Below, piece by piece: positions 4,271 through 13,094 of a stretch of 13,094 bases of DNA; within the stretch, counting starts at the first letter, position 1, and every line of letters begins with the position of its first letter. The position numbers and the translations under genes were made by a program. Below the pieces are notes generated by a model, which did no database searches, was not told the DNA's origin, and was given only the letters and a program-made list of their open reading frames with translations. Origin of the DNA: a virus; the UHGV virus genome UHGV-1625130. One strand, written 5' to 3'.

Positions 4271-4686
4271 GTTTTGCCCTGAAACTGGCGCGTGAGATGG
4301 GGCGACCCGACTGGCGTGCCATGCTTGCCGGGATGTCATCCACGGAGTATGCCGACTGGCACCGCTTTTACAGTACCCATTATTTTCATGATGTTCTGCT
4401 GGATATGCACTTTTCCGGGCTGACGTACACCGTGCTCAGCCTGTTTTTCAGCGATCCGGATATGCATCCGCTGGATTTCAGTCTGCTGAACCGGCGTGAG
4501 GCTGACGAAGAGCCTGAAGATGATGTGCTGATGCAGAAAGCGGCAGGGCTTGCCGGAGGTGTCCGCTTTGGCCCGGACGGGAATGAAGTTATCCCTACTT
4601 CCCCGGATGTGGCGGACATGACGGAGGATGACGTAATGCTGATGACAGTATCAGAAGGGATCGCAGGAGGAGTCCGGTATGGCTGA
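3848..4686 (+). CDS. T: Tail assembly protein G-T fusion, made by -1 programmed ribosomal frameshift at 4246-4252
   Basis: After a -1 slip at G_GGA_AAG the reading continues GKVFDGELSFALKLAREMGRPDWRAMLAGMSSTEYADWHRFYSTHYFHDVLLDMHF...GIAGGVRYG, which matches the lambda gpT portion of gpGT. The T frame has no independent SD or start consistent with standalone expression. Confidence 0.85.
4246..4252 (+). promoter_or_regulatory. Slippery heptamer G GGA AAG for the G/G-T -1 frameshift
   Basis: Read directly: tct gcG GGA AAG ttt in the G frame, 6 codons before the G stop. This is the same heptamer as the lambda G-T frameshift site. Confidence 0.8.
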
Positions 4687-7258
4687 ACCGGTAGGCGATC
4701 TGGTCGTTGATTTGAGTCTGGATGCGGCCAGATTTGACGAGCAGATGGCCAGAGTCAGGCGTCATTTTTCCGGTACGGAAACTGATGCGAAAAAAACAGC
4801 GGCAGTCGTTGAACAGTCGCTGAGCCGACAGGCGCTGGCTGCACAGAAAGCGGGGATTTCCGTCGGACAGTATAAAGCCGCCATGCGTATGCTTCCTGCA
4901 CAGTTCACCGACGTGGCCACGCAGCTTGCAGGCGGGCAAAGTCCGTGGCTGATCCTGCTGCAACAGGGGGGGCAGGTTAAGGACTCCTTCGGCGGGATGA
5001 TCCCCATGTTCCGGGGGCTTGCCGGTGCGATCACCCTGCCGATGGTGGGGGCTACCTCGCTGGCGGTGGCGACCGGAGCGCTGGCGTATGCCTGGTATCA
5101 GGGCAACTCAACCCTGTCCGATTTCAACAAAACGCTGGTCCTTTCCGGCAATCAGGCGGGACTGACGGCAGATCGTATGCTGGTCCTGTCCAGAGCCGGG
5201 CAGGCGGCAGGGCTGACGTTTAACCAGACCAGCGAGTCACTGTCGGCGCTGGTGAATGCCGGTGTGCGTGGTGGTGAACAGTTTGATGCCATCAACCAGA
5301 GTGTCGCGCGTTTTGCGTCTGCATCCGGTGTGGAGGTGGATAAAGTCGCTGAAGCCTTCGGGAAGCTGACCACAGACCCGACGTCGGGGCTGACGGCGAT
5401 GGCACGCCAGTTCCATAACGTGACGGCGGAGCAGATTGCGTATGTTGCTCAGTTGCAGCGTTCCGGAGATGAAGCCGGGGCATTGCAGGCGGCGAACGAG
5501 GCCGCAACGAAAGGGTTTGATGACCAGACCCGCCGCCTGAAAGAGAACATGGGCACGCTGGAGAACTGGGCAGACAGGACAGCACGGGCATTCAAATCCA
5601 TGTGGGATTCGGTGCTGGATATTGGTCGCCCGGACACTGCCCAGGGAATGCTGGAGAAAGCAGAAAAGGCTTTTGATGAGGCGGACAAAAAATGGCAGTG
5701 GTATCAGAGCCGGAGCCACCGGCGCGGTAAAACCTCAGCATTTCTTGCCAATCTCCGGGGAGCATGGGAGGACAGAGCGAATGCGCAACTTGGGCTTTCA
5801 GCCGCCACGTTGCAGGCCGATCTTGAAAAGGCCAGAGAGATGGCAGCAAAGGACTGGGTCGAGTCTGAGGCATCACGGCTGAAATATACCGAAGAGGCGC
5901 AGAAGGCTTACGAACGCCTGCAGACGCCGCTGGAGAAATATACCGCCCGTCAGGAAGAACTGAACAAGGCACTGAAAGACGGGAAAATCCTGCAGGCGGA
6001 TTACAACACGCTGATGGCGGCGGCGAAAAAGGATTATGAAGCGACGCTGAAAAAGCCGAAACAGTCCGGCGTGAAGGTGTCTGCGGGCGATCGTCAGGAA
6101 GACAGTGCTCATGCTGCCCTGCTGACGCTTCAGGCAGAACTCCGGACGCTGGAGAAGCATGCCGGAGCGAATGAGAAAATCAGCCAGCAGCGCCGGGATT
6201 TGTGGAAGGCGGAGAGTCAGTTCGCTGTACTGGAGGAGGCGGCACAACGTCGCCAGCTGTCCGCACAGGAGAAATCCCTGCTGGCGCATAAAGATGAGAC
6301 GCTGGAGTACAAACGCCAGCTGGCTGCACTTGGCGACAAGGTTACGTATCAGGAGCGCCTGAACGCGCTGGCGCAGCAGGCGGATAAATTCGCACAGCAG
6401 CAACGGGCAAAACGGGCCGCCATTGATGCGAAAAGCCGGGGGCTGACTGACCGGCAGGCAGAACGGGAAGCCACGGAACAGCGCCTGAAGGAACAGTATG
6501 GCGATAATCCGCTGGCGCTGAATAACGTCATGTCAGAGCAGAAAAAGACCTGGACGGCTGAAGACCAGCTTCGCGGGAGCTGGATGGCAGGCCTGAAGTC
6601 CGGCTGGAGTGAGTGGGAAGAGAGCGCCACGGACAGTATGTCGCAGGTTAAAAGTGCAGCCACGCAGACCTTTGATGGTATTGCACAGAATATGGCGGCG
6701 ATGCTGACCGGCAGTGAGCAGAACTGGCGCAGCTTCACCCGTTCCGTGCTGTCCATGATGACAGAAATTCTGCTTAAGCAGGCAATGGTGGGGATTGTCG
6801 GGAGTATCGGCAGCGCCATTGGCGGGGCTGTTGGTGGCGGCGCATCCGCATCAGGCGGTACAGCCATTCAGGCAGCTGCGGCGAAATTCCATTTTGCGAC
6901 CGGAGGATTTACGGGAACCGGCGGCAAATATGAGCCAGCGGGGATTGTTCACCGTGGTGAGTTTGTCTTCACGAAGGAGGCAACCAGCCGGATTGGCGTG
7001 GGGAATCTTTACCGGCTGATGCGCGGCTCTGCCACCGGCGGTTATGTCGGTACACCGGGCAGCATGGCAGACAGCCGGTCGCAGGCGTCCGGGACGTTTG
7101 AGCAGAATAACCATGTGGTGATTAACAACGACGGCACGAACGGGCAGATAGGTCCGGCTGCTCTGAAGGCGGTGTATGACATGGCCCGCAAGGGTGCCCG
7201 TGATGAAATTCAGACACAGATGCGTGATGGTGGCCTGTTCTCCGGAGGTGGACGATGA
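4679..7258 (+). CDS. H: Tail tape measure protein H
   Basis: 859-aa translation MAEPVGDLVVDLSLDAARFDEQMARVRRHFSG...QTQMRDGGLFSGGGR; coiled-coil-rich centre, Gly-rich segment IGSAIGGAVGGGASASGGTAIQAAAAKFHFATGGFTGTGG; strong GGAGGAG SD. The ATG overlaps the end of T by 8 nt. Six codons longer than the 853 aa I recall for lambda H. Confidence 0.95.
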   Translation: MAEPVGDLVVDLSLDAARFDEQMARVRRHFSGTETDAKKTAAVVEQSLSRQALAAQKAGISVGQYKAAMRMLPAQFTDVATQLAGGQSPWLILLQQGGQVKDSFGGMIPMFRGLAGAITLPMVGATSLAVATGALAYAWYQGNSTLSDFNKTLVLSGNQAGLTADRMLVLSRAGQAAGLTFNQTSESLSALVNAGVRGGEQFDAINQSVARFASASGVEVDKVAEAFGKLTTDPTSGLTAMARQFHNVTAEQIAYVAQLQRSGDEAGALQAANEAATKGFDDQTRRLKENMGTLENWADRTARAFKSMWDSVLDIGRPDTAQGMLEKAEKAFDEADKKWQWYQSRSHRRGKTSAFLANLRGAWEDRANAQLGLSAATLQADLEKAREMAAKDWVESEASRLKYTEEAQKAYERLQTPLEKYTARQEELNKALKDGKILQADYNTLMAAAKKDYEATLKKPKQSGVKVSAGDRQEDSAHAALLTLQAELRTLEKHAGANEKISQQRRDLWKAESQFAVLEEAAQRRQLSAQEKSLLAHKDETLEYKRQLAALGDKVTYQERLNALAQQADKFAQQQRAKRAAIDAKSRGLTDRQAEREATEQRLKEQYGDNPLALNNVMSEQKKTWTAEDQLRGSWMAGLKSGWSEWEESATDSMSQVKSAATQTFDGIAQNMAAMLTGSEQNWRSFTRSVLSMMTEILLKQAMVGIVGSIGSAIGGAVGGGASASGGTAIQAAAAKFHFATGGFTGTGGKYEPAGIVHRGEFVFTKEATSRIGVGNLYRLMRGSATGGYVGTPGSMADSRSQASGTFEQNNHVVINNDGTNGQIGPAALKAVYDMARKGARDEIQTQMRDGGLFSGGGR

Positions 7259-7584
7259 AGACCTTCCGCTGGAAAGTGAAACCCGGTATGGATGTGGCTT
7301 CGGCCCCTTCCGTAAGAAAGGTGCGCTTTGGTGATGGCTATTCTCCGCGAGCGCCTGCCGGGCTGAATGCCGACCTGAAAACGTACAGCGTGACGTTTTC
7401 TGTTCCCCGTTGGGAGGCCACGGCGCTGGAGTCGTTTCTGGCTGAGCACGGGGGCTGGAAATCCTTTCTGTGGACGCCGCCTTATGAGTGGCGGCAGATA
7501 AAGGTGACCTGCGCAAAATGGTCGTCGCGGGTCAGTATGCTGCGTGTTGAGTTCAGCGCAGAGTTTGAACAGGTGGTGAACTGA
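7255..7584 (+). CDS. M: Minor tail protein M
   Basis: 109-aa translation MKTFRWKVKPGMDVASAPSVRKVRFGDGYSPRAPAGLNADLKTYSVTFSVPRWEATALESFLAEHGGWKSF... matches lambda gpM; start overlaps the H stop (ATGA). Confidence 0.93.
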   Translation: MKTFRWKVKPGMDVASAPSVRKVRFGDGYSPRAPAGLNADLKTYSVTFSVPRWEATALESFLAEHGGWKSFLWTPPYEWRQIKVTCAKWSSRVSMLRVEFSAEFEQVVN

Positions 7585-8282
7585 TGCAGGATATCCGGCA
7601 GGAAACACTGAATGAATGCACCCGTGCGGAGCAGTCTGCCTGCGTGGTGCTCTGGGAAATCGATCTGACAGAGGTTGGTGGAGAACGTTATTTTTTCTGT
7701 AATGAGCAGAACGAAAAAGGTGAGCCGGTCACCTGGCAGGGGCGACAGTATCAGCCGTATCCCATTCAGGGGAGTGGTTTTGAACTGAATGGCAAAGGCA
7801 CCAGTACGCGCCCCACGCTGACGGTTTCTAACCTGTACGGTATGGTCACCGGGATGGCGGAAGACCTGCAGAGTCTGGTCGGCGGAACGGTGGTCCGGCG
7901 TAAGGTTTACGCCCGTTTTCTGGATGCGGTGAACTTCGTCAACGGAAACAGAGACGCCGATCCGGAGCAGGAGGTGATCAGCCGCTGGCGCATCGAGCAG
8001 TGCAGCGAACTGAGCGCGGTGAGTGCCTCCTTTGTACTGTCCACGCCGACGGAAACGGATGGCGCTGTTTTTCCGGGACGTATCATGCTGGCCAACACCT
8101 GCACCTGGACCTATCGCGGTGATGAGTGCGGTTATCACGGTCCGGCGGTCGCGGATGAATATGATCAGCCGACGTCCGATATCACGAAGGATAAATGCAG
8201 CAAATGCCTGAGTGGCTGTAAGTTTCGCAATAACGTCGGCAACTTTGGCGGCTTCCTTTCCATTAACAAACTTTCGCAGTAA
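7584..8282 (+). CDS. L: Minor tail protein L
   Basis: 232-aa translation MQDIRQETLNECTRAEQSACVVLWEIDLTEVGGERYFFCNEQNEKGEPVTWQG... with the C-terminal Cys cluster (CGYHG...CSKCLSGC) matches lambda gpL; start overlaps the M stop (TGATG). Confidence 0.93.
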   Translation: MQDIRQETLNECTRAEQSACVVLWEIDLTEVGGERYFFCNEQNEKGEPVTWQGRQYQPYPIQGSGFELNGKGTSTRPTLTVSNLYGMVTGMAEDLQSLVGGTVVRRKVYARFLDAVNFVNGNRDADPEQEVISRWRIEQCSELSAVSASFVLSTPTETDGAVFPGRIMLANTCTWTYRGDECGYHGPAVADEYDQPTSDITKDKCSKCLSGCKFRNNVGNFGGFLSINKLSQ

Positions 8283-8287
8283 ATCCC

Positions 8288-9031
8288 ATGACACAGACAG
8301 AATCAGCGATTCTGGCGCACGCCCGGCGATGTGCGCCAGCGGAGTCGTGCGGCTTCGTGGTAAGCACGCCGGAGGGGGAAAGATATTTTCCCTGCGTGAA
8401 TATCTCCGGTGAGCCGGAGGCGTATTTCCGGATGTCGCCGGAGGACTGGCTGAGTGCAGAAATGCAGGGAGAGATTGTGGCGCTGGTCCACAGCCACCCC
8501 GGTGGTCTGCCCTGGCTGAGTGAGGCCGACCGGCGGCTGCAGGTGCAGAGTGATTTGCCGTGGTGGCTGGTCTGCCGGGGGACGATTCATAAGTTCCGCT
8601 GTGTGCCGCATCTCACCGGGCGGCGCTTTGAGCACGGTGTGACGGACTGTTACACACTGTTCCGGGATGCTTATCATCTGGCGGGGATTGAGATGCCGGA
8701 CTTTCATCGTGAGGATGACTGGTGGCGTAACGGCCAGAATCTCTATCTGGATAATCTGGAGGCCACAGGGCTGTATCAGGTGCCGTTGTCATCAGCACAA
8801 CCGGGCGATGTGCTGCTGTGCTGTTTTGGTTCATCGGTGCCGAATCATGCCGCCATTTACTGTGGTGACGGCGAGCTGCTGCACCATATTCCTGAACAAC
8901 TGAGCAAACGAGAGAGGTACACCGACAAATGGCAGCGACGCACACACTCCCTCTGGCGTCACCGGGCATGGCGCGCATCTGCCTTTACGGGGATTTACAA
9001 CGATTTGGCCGCCGCATCGATCTGCGTGTGA
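8288..9031 (+). CDS. K: Tail tip assembly protein K (N-terminal JAMM/MPN-like region with HSHPGGLPWLSEAD motif, C-terminal NlpC/P60-like region); alternative lambda-annotated start corresponds to ATG 8432
   Basis: 247-aa ORF MTQTESAILAHARRCAPAESCGFVVSTPEGERYF... begins 5 nt after the L stop. Residues 49-247 (MSPEDWLSAEMQGEIVALVHSHPGG...) match the 199-aa lambda K as annotated. The HxHx7SxxD motif and conserved Cys/His residues are visible in the translation. Confidence 0.85.
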   Translation: MTQTESAILAHARRCAPAESCGFVVSTPEGERYFPCVNISGEPEAYFRMSPEDWLSAEMQGEIVALVHSHPGGLPWLSEADRRLQVQSDLPWWLVCRGTIHKFRCVPHLTGRRFEHGVTDCYTLFRDAYHLAGIEMPDFHREDDWWRNGQNLYLDNLEATGLYQVPLSSAQPGDVLLCCFGSSVPNHAAIYCGDGELLHHIPEQLSKRERYTDKWQRRTHSLWRHRAWRASAFTGIYNDLAAASICV

Positions 9032-9600
9032 AAACGGGGGCCGAAGCCATCCGGGCGCTGGCCATGCAGATCCCGGCGTTTCGTCAGAAACTGAGCGACG
9101 GCTGGTATCAGGTACGGATTGCCGGGCGGGACGTCAGCACGTCCGGGTTAACGGCGCAGTTACATGAGACTCTGCCTGATGGCGCTGTGATTCATATTGT
9201 TCCCAGAGTCGCCGGGGCCAAGTCAGGTGGCGTATTCCAGATTGTCCTGGGGGCTGCCGCCATTGCCGGATCATTCTTTACCGCCGGAGCCACCCTTGCA
9301 GCATGGGGGGCAGCCATTGGGACCGGTGGTATGACCGGCATCCTGTTTTCTCTCGGTGCCAGTATGGTGCTCGGTGGTGTGGCGCAGATGCTGGCACCGA
9401 AAGCCAGAACTCCCCGTACACAGACAACGGATAACGGCAAACAGAACACCTATTTCTCCTCACTGGATAACATGGTTGCCCAGGGCAATGTTCTGCCTGT
9501 TCTGTACGGTGAAATGCGCGTGGGGTCACGTGTGGTTTCTCAGGAGATCAGCACGGCAGACGAAGGGGACGGTGGTCAGGTTGTGGTGATTGGTCGCTGA
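8929..9600 (+). CDS. I: Tail tip assembly protein I (ubiquitin-like N-terminus, hydrophobic Gly/Ala-rich centre)
   Basis: 223-aa translation MAATHTLPLASPGMARICLYGDLQRFGRRIDLRVKTGAEAIRALA...DGGQVVVIGR matches lambda gpI; overlaps the 3' end of K by 103 nt in a different frame. Confidence 0.92.
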   Translation: MAATHTLPLASPGMARICLYGDLQRFGRRIDLRVKTGAEAIRALAMQIPAFRQKLSDGWYQVRIAGRDVSTSGLTAQLHETLPDGAVIHIVPRVAGAKSGGVFQIVLGAAAIAGSFFTAGATLAAWGAAIGTGGMTGILFSLGASMVLGGVAQMLAPKARTPRTQTTDNGKQNTYFSSLDNMVAQGNVLPVLYGEMRVGSRVVSQEISTADEGDGGQVVVIGR

Positions 9601-9660: not shown

Positions 9661-12600
9661 ATGGGTAAAGGCAGCAGTAAGGGGCATACCCCGCGCGAAG
9701 CGAAGGACAACCTGAAGTCCACGCAGTTGCTGAGTGTGATCGATGCCATCAGCGAAGGGCCGATTGAAGGTCCGGTGGATGGATTAAAAAGCGTGCTGCT
9801 GAACAGTACGCCGGTGCTGGACAGTGAGGGGAATACCAATATATCCGGTGTCACGGTGGTGTTCCGGGCAGGTGAGCAGGAGCAGACACCGCCGGAGGGA
9901 TTTGAATCCTCCGGCTCCGAGACGGTGCTGGGTACGGAAGTGAAATATGACACGCCGATCACCCGGACCATCACGTCGGCAAACATCGACCGTCTGCGCT
10001 TTACCTTCGGTGTGCAGGCACTGGTGGAAACCACCTCAAAGGGGGACCGGAATCCGTCGGAAGTCCGCCTGCTGGTTCAGATCCAGCGTAATGGTGGCTG
10101 GGTGACGGAAAAAGACATCACCATTAAGGGCAAAACCACCTCGCAGTATCTGGCCTCGGTGGTGGTGGGTAACCTGCCGCCGCGCCCGTTCAATATCCGG
10201 ATGCGCAGGATGACGCCGGACAGCACCACAGACCAGCTGCAGAACAAAACGCTCTGGTCGTCATACACCGAAATCATCGATGTGAAACAGTGCTACCCGA
10301 ACACGGCACTGGTCGGCGTGCAGGTGGATTCGGAGCAGTTCGGCAGCCAGCAGGTGAGCCGTAATTATCATCTGCGCGGGCGCATTCTGCAGGTGCCGTC
10401 GAACTATAACCCGCAGACGCGGCAATACAGCGGTATCTGGGACGGAACGTTTAAGCCAGCATACAGCAACAACATGGCCTGGTGTCTGTGGGATATGCTG
10501 ACCCATCCGCGCTACGGCATGGGGAAACGTCTTGGTGCGGCGGATGTGGACAAATGGGCGCTGTATGTCATCGGCCAGTACTGCGACCAGTCAGTGCCGG
10601 ACGGCTTTGGCGGCACGGAGCCGCGCATCACCTGTAATGCGTACCTGACCACACAACGTAAGGCGTGGGATGTGCTCAGTGATTTCTGCTCGGCGATGCG
10701 CTGTATGCCGGTATGGAACGGGCAGACGCTGACGTTCGTGCAGGACCGACCGTCGGATAAGGTGTGGACCTATAACCGCAGTAATGTGGTGATGCCGGAT
10801 GATGGCGCGCCGTTCCGCTACAGCTTCAGCGCCCTGAAGGACCGCCATAATGCCGTTGAGGTGAACTGGATTGACCCGAATAACGGCTGGGAGACGGCGA
10901 CAGAGCTTGTGGAGGACACGCAGGCCATTGCCCGTTACGGTCGTAACGTCACGAAGATGGATGCTTTTGGCTGTACCAGCCGGGGGCAGGCACACCGCGC
11001 CGGGCTGTGGCTGATTAAAACAGAACTGCTGGAAACGCAGACCGTGGACTTCAGCGTGGGTGCCGAAGGGCTTCGCCATGTACCGGGCGATGTCATTGAA
11101 ATCTGCGATGATGACTATGCGGGTATCAGCACCGGCGGGCGCGTGCTGGCGGTGAACAGCCAGACCCGGACGCTGACGCTCGACCGTGAAATCACGCTGC
11201 CATCCTCCGGTACCACGCTGATAAGCCTGGTTGACGGAAGTGGCAATCCGGTCAGCGTGGAGGTTCAGTCCGTCACCGACGGCGTGAAGGTGAAAGTGAG
11301 CCGTGTTCCTGACGGCGTTGCTGAATACAGCGTGTGGGGGCTGAAGCTGCCGACGCTGCGCCAGCGCCTGTTCCGCTGCGTGAGTATCCGTGAGAACGAC
11401 GACGGCACGTATGCCATCACCGCCGTGCAGCATGTACCGGAAAAAGAGGCCATCGTGGATAACGGGGCGCACTTTGACGGCGACCAGAGCGGCACGGTGA
11501 ATGGTGTCACGCCGCCAGCGGTGCAGCACCTGACCGCCGAAGTCACCGCAGACAGCGGGGAATATCAGGTGCTGGCGCGCTGGGACACGCCGAAGGTGGT
11601 GAAGGGCGTGAGCTTCCTGCTTCGCCTGACCGTGGCAGCGGATGACGGCCGTGAGCGGCTGGTCAGCACGGCCCGGACGACGGAAACCACTTACCGCTTC
11701 ACACAACTGGCTCTGGGGAACTACAGGCTGACAGTCCGGGCAGTAAATGCGTGGGGGCAGCAGGGCGATCCGGCGTCGGTATCGTTCCGGATTGCCGCAC
11801 CGGCAGCGCCGTCGCGGATTGAGCTGACGCCGGGCTATTTTCAGATAACCGCCACGCCGCATCTTGCGGTTTATGACCCGACGGTACAGTTTGAGTTCTG
11901 GTTCTCGGAAAAACGGATTGCGGATATCAGGCAGGTTGAAACCAGCGCGCGTTATCTTGGTACGGCACTGTACTGGATAGCCGCCAGTATCAATATCAAA
12001 CCGGGCCATGATTATTATTTTTACGTTCGCAGTGTGAACACCGTTGGCAAATCGGCATTCGTGGAGGCTGTCGGTCGGGCGAGCGATGATGCGGAAGGTT
12101 ACCTGGATTTTTTCAAAGGCAAGATAACCGAATCCCATCTTGGTAAAGAGCTGCTGGAAAAAGTCGACCTGACGGAGGATAACGCCAGCAAACTGGAGCA
12201 GTTTTCGAAAGAGTGGAAGGATGCTAACGATAAGTGGAATGCCATGTGGGGCGTCAAAATTGAGCAGACCAAAGACGGCAAACATTATGTCGCGGGTATT
12301 GGCCTCAGCATGGAGGACACGGAGGAAGGTAAACTGAGCCAGTTCCTGGTTGCCGCTAACCGTATCGCGTTTATTGACCCGGCAAACGGAAATGAAACGC
12401 CGATGTTTGTGGCGCAGGGTGATCAGATATTCATGAATGACGTGTTCCTGAAACGCCTGACGGCCCCCACCATTACCAGCGGTGGAAATCCACCGGCATT
12501 TTCCCTGACACCGGACGGAAAGCTGACCGCTAAAAATGCGGATATCAGTGGCAGTGTGAATGCGAACGCCGGGACGCTCAACAATGTCACGGTAAATGAA

Positions 12601-13074
12601 AACTGTACGATTAAGGGCATGCTGGAGGCGACCCAGGTCAGAGGGGATTTCGTTAAAGCTGTATCAAAAGCCTTCCCGAAAAAAGTCGGTACGTGGGGTA
12701 ACACGGAAACACCAAACGGTACGGTTACAGTCACCATCAGCGATGATCATAACTTTGACCGTCAAATCATTATTCCGCCCATTATCTTTAACGGAATAGC
12801 GTATAGCGATCCGGGAAGTGGTAATAACCCGGGAGGTACAAGATACACGGGTTATGGTTTTGAAGTTCGCAAAAACGGTGTATTAATCGCATCCAGAGAA
12901 ACTAAAGGGGCCATTCCCGGTAGCTACAGTGCGGTTATTGATATGCCGAGTGGCAGGGGAAGCGTCACTCTGGAGTTTAAGGTTTTCCAGAAAGGCAATC
13001 AGGGGGCAGGCAATATCACCGACTGTACGGTGATTGTGACCAAAAAAGCCGCTTCCGGCATCAGTATTCGTTGA
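9661..13074 (+). CDS. J: Central tail fibre / tail tip host-specificity protein J (two FN3-like repeats in the 11.5-12.1 kb region; diverged C-terminal receptor-binding module)
   Basis: 1137-aa translation [54 protein letters not shown]... matches lambda gpJ over most of its length; GAGGA SD; TGA stop at 13072-13074. About 5 codons longer than lambda J as recalled, with the C-terminal ~150 aa differing. Confidence 0.95.
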
Positions 13075-13094
13075 AATATTTATAACCCCAATAA

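What the first reader, a model, noticed from the sequence alone, without database searches (positions are those of the whole stretch)
8288..9031. K reads as a 247-aa two-domain protein directly abutting L, 48 codons longer than the lambda-annotated K
The ORF starts at ATG 8288, only 5 nt after the L stop. Its first 48 codons precede the HSHPGGLPWLSEAD JAMM-type metal-binding motif, which would be expected to need upstream sequence to form a complete MPN fold. Lambda K is annotated as 199 aa beginning at the Met equivalent to 8432, leaving a ~148-nt gap after L. By my recalled lambda coordinates the L-to-K offset differs by 1 nt between this window and lambda, implying a 1-nt indel in that gap. 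The longer form here is probably the true ancestral K.
Basis: partly seen in the sequence, partly recalled or inferred. Interest (0 to 1): 0.4.

Follow-up and report, generated by a model that had tools for sequence, protein, structure and literature searches.

The report
Full-length lambda tail gene K
The 247-codon gene is the ordinary, complete form of the lambda tail-assembly protease K; the shorter 199-residue K in the classic lambda reference comes from one base missing from that 1982 sequence, which is useful for curators but is not a new biological finding.

Summary
ORF 8288-9031 (+) encodes 247 aa and starts 5 nt after the L stop. Its first 48 codons precede the HSHx7SxxD motif. Reference lambda (J02459/NC_001416) differs in the L-K interval by exactly one base: it lacks the G at window 8422, which would follow reference position 14266.

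That missing G occurs only in the reference and two records derived from it. The other 118 of 122 phage records have the G. They include independently sequenced lambda, imm21/imm434 hybrids, DE3, and commercial lambda cI857 ind1 Sam7 DNA. All 80 IMG/VR loci and the Edwardsiella and Salmonella homologues checked carry an intact ~245-aa ORF.

Residues 1-48 hold the catalytic Glu19 and the first helix and beta-hairpin of a JAMM/MPN (Prok-JAB) domain. The 199-aa form keeps only the second half of that domain. The C-terminal half is an NlpC/P60 peptidase.

So the long form is ancestral and is also the real lambda K. The short form is an annotation artefact, still carried by RefSeq and UniProt (TIPK_LAMBD). 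The JAB + NlpC/P60 architecture was published in 2006, and NCBI's PGAP pipeline already annotates the 247-aa form. The likely function is cleavage of the ubiquitin-like domain from gpI during tail-tip assembly. Already known; low interest.

The parts
7584..8282 (+). Gene L (minor tail / tail tip protein L, 232 aa). Its TAA stop at 8280-8282 lies 5 nt before the K start.
   Evidence: ORF list. Pfam Phage_tail_L 335 bits and NCBIfam TIGR01600 330 bits.
8283..8287 (+). 5-nt L-K spacer ATCCC. There is no Shine-Dalgarno motif in the 25 nt upstream of ATG 8288, so K initiation is probably coupled to termination of L (inferred).
   Evidence: Sequence. A 4-5 nt spacing is kept in 80/80 IMG/VR loci and in an Edwardsiella homologue.
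8288..9031 (+). Gene K, full length: 247 codons plus the TGA stop. Tail tip assembly protein K, made of a JAMM/MPN domain and an NlpC/P60 domain.
   Evidence: It is 98% identical (242/247) to the 247-aa K of re-sequenced lambda PV340536. PGAP annotates the same 744-nt CDS in E. coli genomes.
8288..8431 (+). Codons 1-48, the part missing from the reference-lambda K annotation. They encode helix 3-15 and strands 20-27 and 30-35 of the JAB fold.
   Evidence: This 48-aa piece alone hits Prok-JAB profile positions 3-41. AF2 pLDDT is 81-93 over residues 1-40. The segment is conserved in 70%-identical homologues and is aligned by 35-50%-identical homologues. pN/pS is about 0.35 with synonymous sites saturated.
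8342..8344 (+). Codon GAG = Glu19, the upstream acidic residue of the JAMM motif E-x(n)-H-S-H-x7-S-x2-D. It lies inside the segment missing from the 199-aa form.
   Evidence: Invariant E19-S20-C21-G22 in alignment A2. It aligns with the ...NEACG... segment of JAB protein 2kks. Motif definition from PMC300881.
8422..8422 (+). The G (third base of Ala45) that is absent from J02459/NC_001416 after reference position 14266. Its absence breaks the reading frame in the reference.
   Evidence: Alignment A1. Only 4 of 122 phage records lack it. Whole-genome comparisons. The reference ORF from 14133 reads 45 identical residues, then shifts frame and stops at codon 77.
8416..8434 (+). Internal GGAGG (8416-8420) followed 11 nt later by ATG 8432-8434 (Met49). 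This is the start used for the 199-aa annotation.
   Evidence: Annotated as RBS and start in OM418625. Met49 is kept in 78/80 close loci but is Ile in homologues at 85-92% identity, so it is not a conserved initiation site.
8294..8599 (+). JAMM/MPN+ (Prok-JAB, PF14464) metalloprotease domain, residues 3-104.
   Evidence: Pfam 51.5 bits. PDB sequence hit to 2kks. Foldseek hits to 2kks, PfJAMM1 5ld9/5lda, Rpn11, CSN5 and AMSH.
8489..8530 (+). HSHPGGLPWLSEAD: His68, His70, Ser78 and Asp81 of the JAMM zinc site.
   Evidence: Sequence. H68, S69, H70, P71, S78 and D81 are invariant in A2.
8618..8959 (+). NlpC/P60 (PF00877, C40 peptidase) domain, residues 111-224. Candidate catalytic residues are Cys121 (8648-8650), His187 (8846-8848) and His199 (8882-8884).
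   Evidence: Pfam 49.2 bits. The three residues are invariant in A2. H187 and H199 align with the His residues of NlpC/P60 protein 8idc_E. Foldseek hits to MepS, Acd33800, CwlO and Spr.
8929..9600 (+). Gene I (223 aa as in reference lambda). It overlaps the K 3' end by 103 nt in another frame. It has a ubiquitin-like N-terminal domain ending in Gly100-Gly101 (9226-9231), then hydrophobic segments and the C-terminal plug domain. It is the presumed substrate of K.
   Evidence: ORF list. Pfam Lambda_tail_I covers residues 14-97. Ub-like assignment and predicted cleavage in PMC1779556. Only residues 135-223 are seen in the virion (PMC10721106).

Best explanation
Window 8288-9031 is the complete gene K of a lambda-type tail module (H-M-L-K-I-J). 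It encodes a 247-aa non-virion assembly enzyme with two peptidase domains. The N-terminal domain is a JAMM/MPN+ zinc metalloprotease (residues ~1-105, with Glu19, His68, His70, Ser78 and Asp81). The C-terminal domain is an NlpC/P60 cysteine peptidase (residues ~111-225, with Cys121, His187 and His199).

Translation most likely starts at ATG 8288 by coupling to termination of L 5 nt upstream (inferred).

The 199-aa K of reference lambda is an artefact. The 1982 sequence omits one G after position 14266. This split the ORF, and annotators chose the next ATG that has a Shine-Dalgarno motif.

Mechanism. Shown here: a complete JAMM catalytic motif and fold, and an adjacent gene I with a ubiquitin-like domain ending in Gly-Gly. 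Taken from the literature: the JAB domain cleaves the ubiquitin-like N-terminal domain from gpI once gpI has docked in the nascent tail tip. This leaves the C-terminal plug domain in the virion, and K itself is not incorporated. The role of the NlpC/P60 domain is unresolved.
For: Identity and length:
- ORF and coordinates.
- 98% identity to the 247-aa K of re-sequenced lambda.
- PGAP annotates a 744-nt CDS 5 nt after L.
- 80/80 IMG/VR loci have an intact 247-codon ORF.
- Representative homologues at 35-50% identity, 230-260 aa long, align from query residues ~4-10 (2792 representatives with E<=1e-3).

Domains:
- Pfam Prok-JAB over profile positions 3-112 of 114, plus NLPC_P60.
- Catalytic residues invariant in A2.
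- AF2 model with pLDDT 81-93 over residues 1-40.
- Foldseek hits to JAMM1 with and without SAMP2, Rpn11, CSN5 and AMSH, and to MepS and other NlpC/P60 enzymes.

Reference error:
- Alignment A1.
- Only J02459, NC_001416 and two derivative records lack the G.
- Independently assembled lambda cI857 ind1 Sam7 DNA has the G, and otherwise differs from the reference only at the four known marker substitutions.
- The reference still encodes the first 45 residues perfectly before the frameshift.

Function:
- Iyer et al. 2006 predicted that K processes Ub-like I at its C-terminal glycine (PMC1779556).
- gpK is absent from virions, and gpI is visible only from residue 135 (PMC10721106).
- A 2025 meeting report states that the Davidson lab showed gpK cleaves the Ub-like domain from gpI (PMC12908700).
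Against: No Shine-Dalgarno motif precedes that ATG, whereas a strong GGAGG lies 11 nt before Met49. About a fifth of database gene calls use the 199-aa start (clusters P0060, P0061, P0064 and P0075).

The biochemical evidence for cleavage of gpI is available only as a conference summary. The exact cleavage site is not stated there.

The AF2 model rests on a shallow alignment of 16 sequences (mean pLDDT 76.5).
Confidence: 0.9

Rival explanations
1. Two nested products. As well as the 247-aa protein, ribosomes initiate at Met49 (ATG 8432), using the GGAGG at 8416-8420, to make a 199-aa protein with only the NlpC/P60 domain. This would resemble the nested C/Nu3 or S107/S105 pairs of lambda.
For: GGAGG lies 11 nt upstream of ATG 8432. 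Met49 is kept in 78/80 closely related loci. RBS-based gene callers often choose this start (199-aa clusters with thousands of members).
Against: Met49 is Ile in E. coli homologues at 85-92% identity. The Glu-Ala codons that form the GGAGG are replaced (Thr-Met, Thr-Gln) in Salmonella, Citrobacter and Edwardsiella homologues. The site is therefore not conserved beyond what the protein sequence requires. An 11-nt spacing is longer than optimal. A product starting at Met49 would carry half a JAB domain, likely unfolded, ahead of the NlpC/P60 domain.
Confidence: 0.07
2. The deletion of the G is real in the lambda stock sequenced in 1982. In that case lambda cI857 ind1 Sam7 truly makes only a 199-aa K, or makes K by frameshifting, and the JAB domain is dispensable.
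For: Two further records lack the G (OR974322 and OR474059).
Against: OR474059 is marked UNVERIFIED, is an engineered strain, and is 100% identical to the reference over its first 24.5 kb. OR974322 keeps the reference coordinates and the transferred RefSeq annotation. An independent assembly of cI857 ind1 Sam7 DNA (MW057783) has the G. So do LC730321, PV340536, KT232076, the imm21/imm434 hybrids and DE3. The 45 codons upstream of the deletion show no decay.
Confidence: 0.02
3. Codons 1-48 are a chance upstream extension of the ORF and are not translated. The true K begins at Met49, as annotated in lambda.
For: There is no Shine-Dalgarno motif before ATG 8288. This is the historical annotation.
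Against: The 48 residues alone match the first third of the Prok-JAB profile. They contain the invariant catalytic Glu. They are conserved down to 35% identity. They show purifying selection, with pN/pS about 0.35 and synonymous sites saturated. They are modelled with high confidence as core JAB elements.
Confidence: 0.01

Closest known systems
Bacteriophage lambda tail tip assembly protein K (gpK; UniProt TIPK_LAMBD, GenBank AAA96551.1, RefSeq NP_040598.1)
   Same: It is the same gene in the same H-M-L-K-I-J module. It is 98% identical to K of re-sequenced lambda over all 247 residues, and nearly identical to the deposited 199-aa entry over residues 49-247.
   Different: The deposited reference protein lacks residues 1-48 because one G is missing after position 14266 of J02459/NC_001416. 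The window has five substitutions relative to lambda: S56Q, S169A, A241V, I245T and C246F, written as window residue, position, lambda residue.
[quoted passage not shown]
   Same: The domain architecture is identical, and so is the gene neighbourhood with Ub-like TAPI and TAPJ.
   Different: None found. This is a typical member.
Archaeal and eukaryotic JAMM/MPN+ isopeptidases (PfJAMM1 with SAMP2, HvJAMM1 desampylase, Rpn11, CSN5, AMSH)
   Same: The fold and the E...HSHx7SxxD zinc site are shared. The predicted substrate is likewise a beta-grasp ubiquitin-like domain ending in Gly-Gly.
   Different: K would cut a linear peptide bond within one polypeptide (gpI) during virion assembly, not an isopeptide bond. 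It is fused to an NlpC/P60 domain. Sequence identity is only 21-26%. The NCBIfam desampylase score of 29.5 bits is far below the 130-bit cutoff.
NlpC/P60 (C40) peptidoglycan DL-endopeptidases (E. coli MepS/Spr, B. subtilis CwlO, M. tuberculosis RipC)
   Same: The papain-like fold and the Cys-His-His arrangement are shared.
   Different: K is not found in virions (PMC10721106), so a role in cell-wall digestion at infection is doubtful. Its substrate is unknown. Scores against the specific NCBIfam cell-wall hydrolase models are far below their cutoffs.

Membership tests
JAMM/MPN+ metalloprotease (Pfam Prok-JAB PF14464) | Profile match above the curated threshold that covers the whole domain | tested here: met
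   51.5 bits against a cutoff of 25; residues 3-104 cover profile positions 3-112 of 114. The 199-aa form scores 23.1 bits and covers only positions 64-112.
JAMM/MPN+ metalloprotease (Pfam Prok-JAB PF14464) | Catalytic motif E-x(n)-H-[ST]-H-x7-S-x2-D | tested here: met
   Glu19, His68-Ser69-His70, Ser78 and Asp81, with exact spacing; all are invariant in 16 homologues. Motif as defined in PMC300881.
JAMM/MPN+ metalloprotease (Pfam Prok-JAB PF14464) | MPN fold | tested here: met
   The AF2 model gives Foldseek probability 1.00 to 2kks (TM-score on target 0.58), PfJAMM1 5ld9/5lda (0.62-0.64), Rpn11, CSN5 and AMSH. The model is of moderate confidence (pLDDT 76.5).
JAMM/MPN+ metalloprotease (Pfam Prok-JAB PF14464) | Zinc-dependent peptidase or isopeptidase activity on a ubiquitin-like substrate | not testable with these tools
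   For lambda gpK acting on gpI this is reported only in a meeting summary (PMC12908700).
NlpC/P60 (C40) cysteine peptidase (Pfam PF00877) | Profile match above threshold over the full domain | tested here: met
   49.2 bits against a cutoff of 23; residues 111-224 cover profile positions 1-105 of 105.
NlpC/P60 (C40) cysteine peptidase (Pfam PF00877) | Catalytic Cys, His and a third polar residue | tested here: met
   Cys121 (in DC), His187 (in NH) and His199 are invariant. His187 and His199 align with the His residues of 8idc_E. The His-His spacing is 12. Assignment of catalytic roles is by homology only.
NlpC/P60 (C40) cysteine peptidase (Pfam PF00877) | Peptidoglycan or other amidase activity | not testable with these tools
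   No experimental data were found in the library searched.
Lambda-type tail tip assembly protein K (TAPK) | Position between L (Phage_tail_L) and I (Lambda_tail_I), upstream of J | tested here: met
   The same order is seen in E. coli, Edwardsiella and Salmonella prophages.
Lambda-type tail tip assembly protein K (TAPK) | Close sequence similarity to lambda gpK | tested here: met
   242/247 residues identical to K of lambda PV340536. PHROG phrog_30 hit at 546 bits.

The most novel reading that the evidence does not exclude
The strong internal GGAGG-N11-ATG at 8416-8434 might be used in lambda-clade phages to make a second, 199-aa product with only the NlpC/P60 domain, alongside full-length K. 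That would give the two peptidase activities different stoichiometries during tail-tip assembly.
Probability: 0.07. Interest if true: 0.35.

Novelty: already known. Interest (0 to 1): 0.15.

Why it matters
The practical value is for curation. The most widely used phage reference (J02459/NC_001416, NP_040598, UniProt TIPK_LAMBD) still carries a K protein without its first 48 residues, and those residues include the catalytic glutamate of the JAMM domain.

Analyses that start from that entry see only a peptidase domain. One example is an HHpred analysis of 'residues 52-182 out of 199' (PMC7291167). Such analyses miss the deubiquitinase-like domain that explains how K relates to the ubiquitin-like gpI.

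The error also spreads. Several modern lambda and HK630 records, and about a fifth of database gene calls, repeat the short start.

Biologically nothing new is implied. The architecture and its predicted role have been published since 2006, and experimental confirmation has been reported at a meeting.

Tried and rejected
(1) I searched the literature for an explicit published note of the +G after 14266, or of a 247-aa lambda K. None was found in the held library. My recollection that a commercial supplier lists '+G at 14266' for lambda cI857 ind1 Sam7 DNA could not be cited. I replaced it with a direct comparison of MW057783 against the reference.

(2) The Casjens & Hendrix 2015 review could not be retrieved.

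(3) I counted variable sites by codon position in 70 unique close relatives. Third positions were enriched only weakly (16 of 30 variable sites in codons 1-48). This was too shallow to be decisive, so I used divergent Edwardsiella and Salmonella genes instead.

(4) I looked by eye for a canonical -1 slippery heptamer in the K/I overlap that could produce a K-I fusion. None was seen, and I did not pursue it.

(5) I suspected that the window was the same as IMG/VR contig L011, because its contig range ends at 13094. It is not identical.

(6) The antisense ORFs across the region (7482-8294, 8303-8707 and 8613-8978 on the minus strand) have no support. I treated them as by-products of GC-rich coding sequence.

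Full report
**What is in the sequence**

The window carries a lambda-type late operon: major capsid and head-completion genes, then Z, U, V, G/T, H (4679-7258), M (7255-7584), L (7584-8282), the ORF in question (8288-9031), I (8929-9600) and J (9661-13074).

L ends with TAA at 8280-8282. Five bases (ATCCC) follow, and ATG 8288 opens a 247-codon frame that ends with TGA at 9029-9031. The internal Met that matches the lambda-annotated K start is codon 49 (ATG 8432). HSHPGGLPWLSEAD is residues 68-81.

**The one-base difference**

In NC_001416, L is 13429-14127 and K is 14276-14875 (199 aa). I aligned window 8260-8460 with the reference and with four other lambda or lambda-like records. There is one indel. 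The reference reads GGAGGC-TATTTCC where every other sequence reads GGAGGCGTATTTCC. The missing base is window G 8422, the third base of codon Ala45, and it would follow reference position 14266. It sits between a C and a T, so its placement is unambiguous.

In the reference, the ORF from the ATG at 14133 encodes the same first 45 residues (MTQTES...GEPEA). It then shifts frame and stops at codon 77.

**Is the deletion real or a reference error?**

I used an 80-nt probe taken from the reference. Only 4 of 122 matching phage records are identical to it; all the others carry the extra base. The four are:

- J02459 and its RefSeq copy NC_001416.
- OR474059, an 'UNVERIFIED' engineered strain that is 100% identical to the reference over its first 24.5 kb.
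- OR974322, a record with reference coordinates, the transferred RefSeq annotation and the Sam7 marker.

Independently sequenced lambdas all have the G. These include LC730321, PV340536, KT232076, the imm21, imm434 and h434imm21 hybrids, and the DE3 prophage.

The most telling case is MW057783. It was deposited as 'Campylobacter phage CJLB-4' but is evidently lambda cI857 ind1 Sam7 DNA. Over reference positions 13081-48441 it differs from NC_001416 at exactly five sites: +G after 14266, C37589T, C37742T, G43082A and G45352A. Its K is annotated as 744 nt. The genotype used for the original sequencing therefore carries the G. The missing base is best read as an error in the 1982 sequence, not as a mutation.

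**Are codons 1-48 coding?**

- Pfam places residues 3-104 on Prok-JAB profile positions 3-112 of 114 (51.5 bits, cutoff 25). The 199-aa form retains only positions 64-112 and falls below the cutoff. The 48-aa piece alone matches positions 3-41.
- In 16 homologues down to 69% identity, from Escherichia, Shigella, Citrobacter, Salmonella and Edwardsiella, the N-terminal segment is well conserved. I8, L9, A12, A16, P17, E19, S20, C21, G22, V24, G30, Y33, P35, C36, N38, S40, E42, Y46 and F47 are invariant.
- An exhaustive search of 1.84 billion cluster representatives found 2792 relatives with E<=1e-3. Those at 35-50% identity are typically 230-260 aa long and align from query residues ~4-10.
- All 80 IMG/VR loci have an intact 247-codon ORF that starts 4-5 nt after the L stop. 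An Edwardsiella prophage keeps the same 5-nt junction. A Salmonella one has a 102-nt gap but still encodes the full-length protein.
- Against those two divergent genes, codons 1-48 have pN 0.27-0.30 and pS 0.78-0.85. Synonymous sites are saturated, so this indicates purifying selection in this frame. It is slightly weaker than over codons 49-247.
- PGAP routinely annotates the 744-nt CDS as 'C40 family peptidase'. Homologous regions occur in 4369 of 5426 complete E. coli genomes.

**Structure and active sites**

AlphaFold2 run on the 16-sequence alignment gives mean pLDDT 76.5. Residues 1-40 score 81-93 and form helix 3-15 and strands 20-27 and 30-35.

Foldseek against the PDB returns JAMM/MPN proteins: 2kks, Pyrococcus JAMM1 alone and with the ubiquitin-like SAMP2, Rpn11, CSN5 and AMSH. 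It also returns NlpC/P60 enzymes: MepS, Acd33800, CwlO and Spr. A sequence search of the PDB finds 2kks over residues 7-105.

The JAMM motif E-x(n)-H-S-H-x7-S-x2-D (PMC300881) is complete: Glu19, His68, His70, Ser78 and Asp81. Glu19 lies in the segment absent from the reference annotation, so the deposited 199-aa protein lacks a catalytic residue and about half of the fold.

The NlpC/P60 half has invariant Cys121, His187 and His199.

**Why the short start was chosen, and whether it is used**

ATG 8288 has no Shine-Dalgarno motif. It probably depends on coupling to termination of L, which fits this operon: H/M and M/L overlap by ATGA and TGATG. This step is inferred.

By contrast, a GGAGG lies 11 nt before ATG 8432, and some records annotate it as an RBS. 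With the frame broken by the missing G, it was the natural choice. RBS-scoring gene finders still choose it in roughly a fifth of database calls (199-aa clusters P0060, P0061, P0064 and P0075, set against the larger 247-aa clusters).

Met49 is Ile in E. coli homologues at 85-92% identity. The codons that form the GGAGG change in more distant homologues. Nothing therefore supports a conserved internal start. I give a nested 199-aa isoform about 7%.

**Function**

The JAB + NlpC/P60 architecture of 'TAPK' was described by Iyer, Burroughs and Aravind in 2006. They also described its linkage to the ubiquitin-like 'TAPI' and predicted that the JAB domain cuts TAPI at the C-terminal glycine of the Ub-like domain (PMC1779556).

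In this window, the Lambda_tail_I (Ub-like) domain of gpI covers residues 14-97. It is followed by ...AGAKSGG (Gly100-Gly101), then hydrophobic segments.

Cryo-EM of lambda resolves only gpI residues 135-223, as a plug in the tail tip. Mass spectrometry does not detect gpK in virions (PMC10721106; see also PMC12617516).

A 2025 meeting report states that the Davidson laboratory showed gpK cleaves the Ub-like domain from the structural domain of gpI, and only after gpI has engaged other tip proteins (PMC12908700).

The most likely mechanism is therefore an assembly checkpoint protease. K's JAMM domain removes the Ub-like domain of gpI within the nascent tip complex, and K then leaves. The complete catalytic apparatus and the genomic linkage are shown here. 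The cleavage itself comes from the literature. The role of the NlpC/P60 domain remains open.

**Verdict**

This is already known in substance. The architecture was published in 2006, and PGAP and several recent lambda records annotate 247 aa. What remains is a curation point. The canonical entries (NC_001416 NP_040598, UniProt TIPK_LAMBD) and some recent papers that analyse '199 residues' (PMC7291167) still use the truncated protein. Interest is low.

Noticed in passing
window 8929-9600 (alternative starts at 8968 and 9028): Gene I has three different starts in public records. The lambda reference uses ATG 8929 (223 aa). PGAP uses ATG 8968, which is Met14 (200 aa). PV340536 uses GTG 9028, which overlaps the K stop (190 aa). 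The Pfam Lambda_tail_I (ubiquitin-like) domain spans residues 14-97 of the 223-aa form. The 190-aa start would therefore remove the first strands of the beta-grasp, so Met14 or Met1 is the more plausible start.
   Followed up: partly
window 8929-9031: The K 3' end and the I 5' end overlap by 103 nt in different frames (64 nt if I starts at Met14). Both reading frames are conserved at the protein level here: K ...SAFTGIxNDL... and the first strands of the I ubiquitin-like domain.
   Followed up: no
L095 (MW057783.1) and L006 (OR974322.1): Two database 'isolates' are evidently laboratory lambda control DNA. 'Campylobacter phage CJLB-4', from poultry faeces, equals lambda cI857 ind1 Sam7. 'Escherichia phage Lambda isolate P6/2022/SA', from chicken cloacal swabs, equals the reference plus Sam7 and a few differences.
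   Followed up: partly
L007 (LC730321.1), reference positions 138, 20833 and others: Lambda_AGU differs from NC_001416 at 15 sites. One is +C at 20833, in the stf (orf-401/orf-314) region where laboratory lambda carries its known frameshift. This isolate may therefore have an intact side tail fibre gene, like Ur-lambda.
   Followed up: no
window 4679-7258 and 9661-13074: The tape measure H is 859 aa here, against 853 aa in lambda. J is 1137 aa, against 1132 aa. The phage is therefore a lambda relative rather than lambda itself, and its J may differ at the receptor-binding end.
   Followed up: no
proteins P0013, P0033, P0084 (K-I fusions) and P0023, P0035, P0042 (L-K fusions): A few database proteins, mostly singletons, fuse L+K or K+I domains (Pfam PF05100+PF14464+PF00877, or PF14464+PF00877+PF06805). 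They are probably frameshift errors in assemblies, given the 5-nt L-K gap and the K/I overlap, although Iyer et al. 2006 mention genuine fusions in some prophages.
   Followed up: no
L003 (OM418625) and L005 (HK630 JQ086376), K region: Records whose DNA has the G, and therefore an open 247-codon frame, still annotate the 199-aa K. In one case an explicit RBS feature is placed at the internal GGAGG. This shows the reference error being carried forward by annotation transfer.
   Followed up: yes
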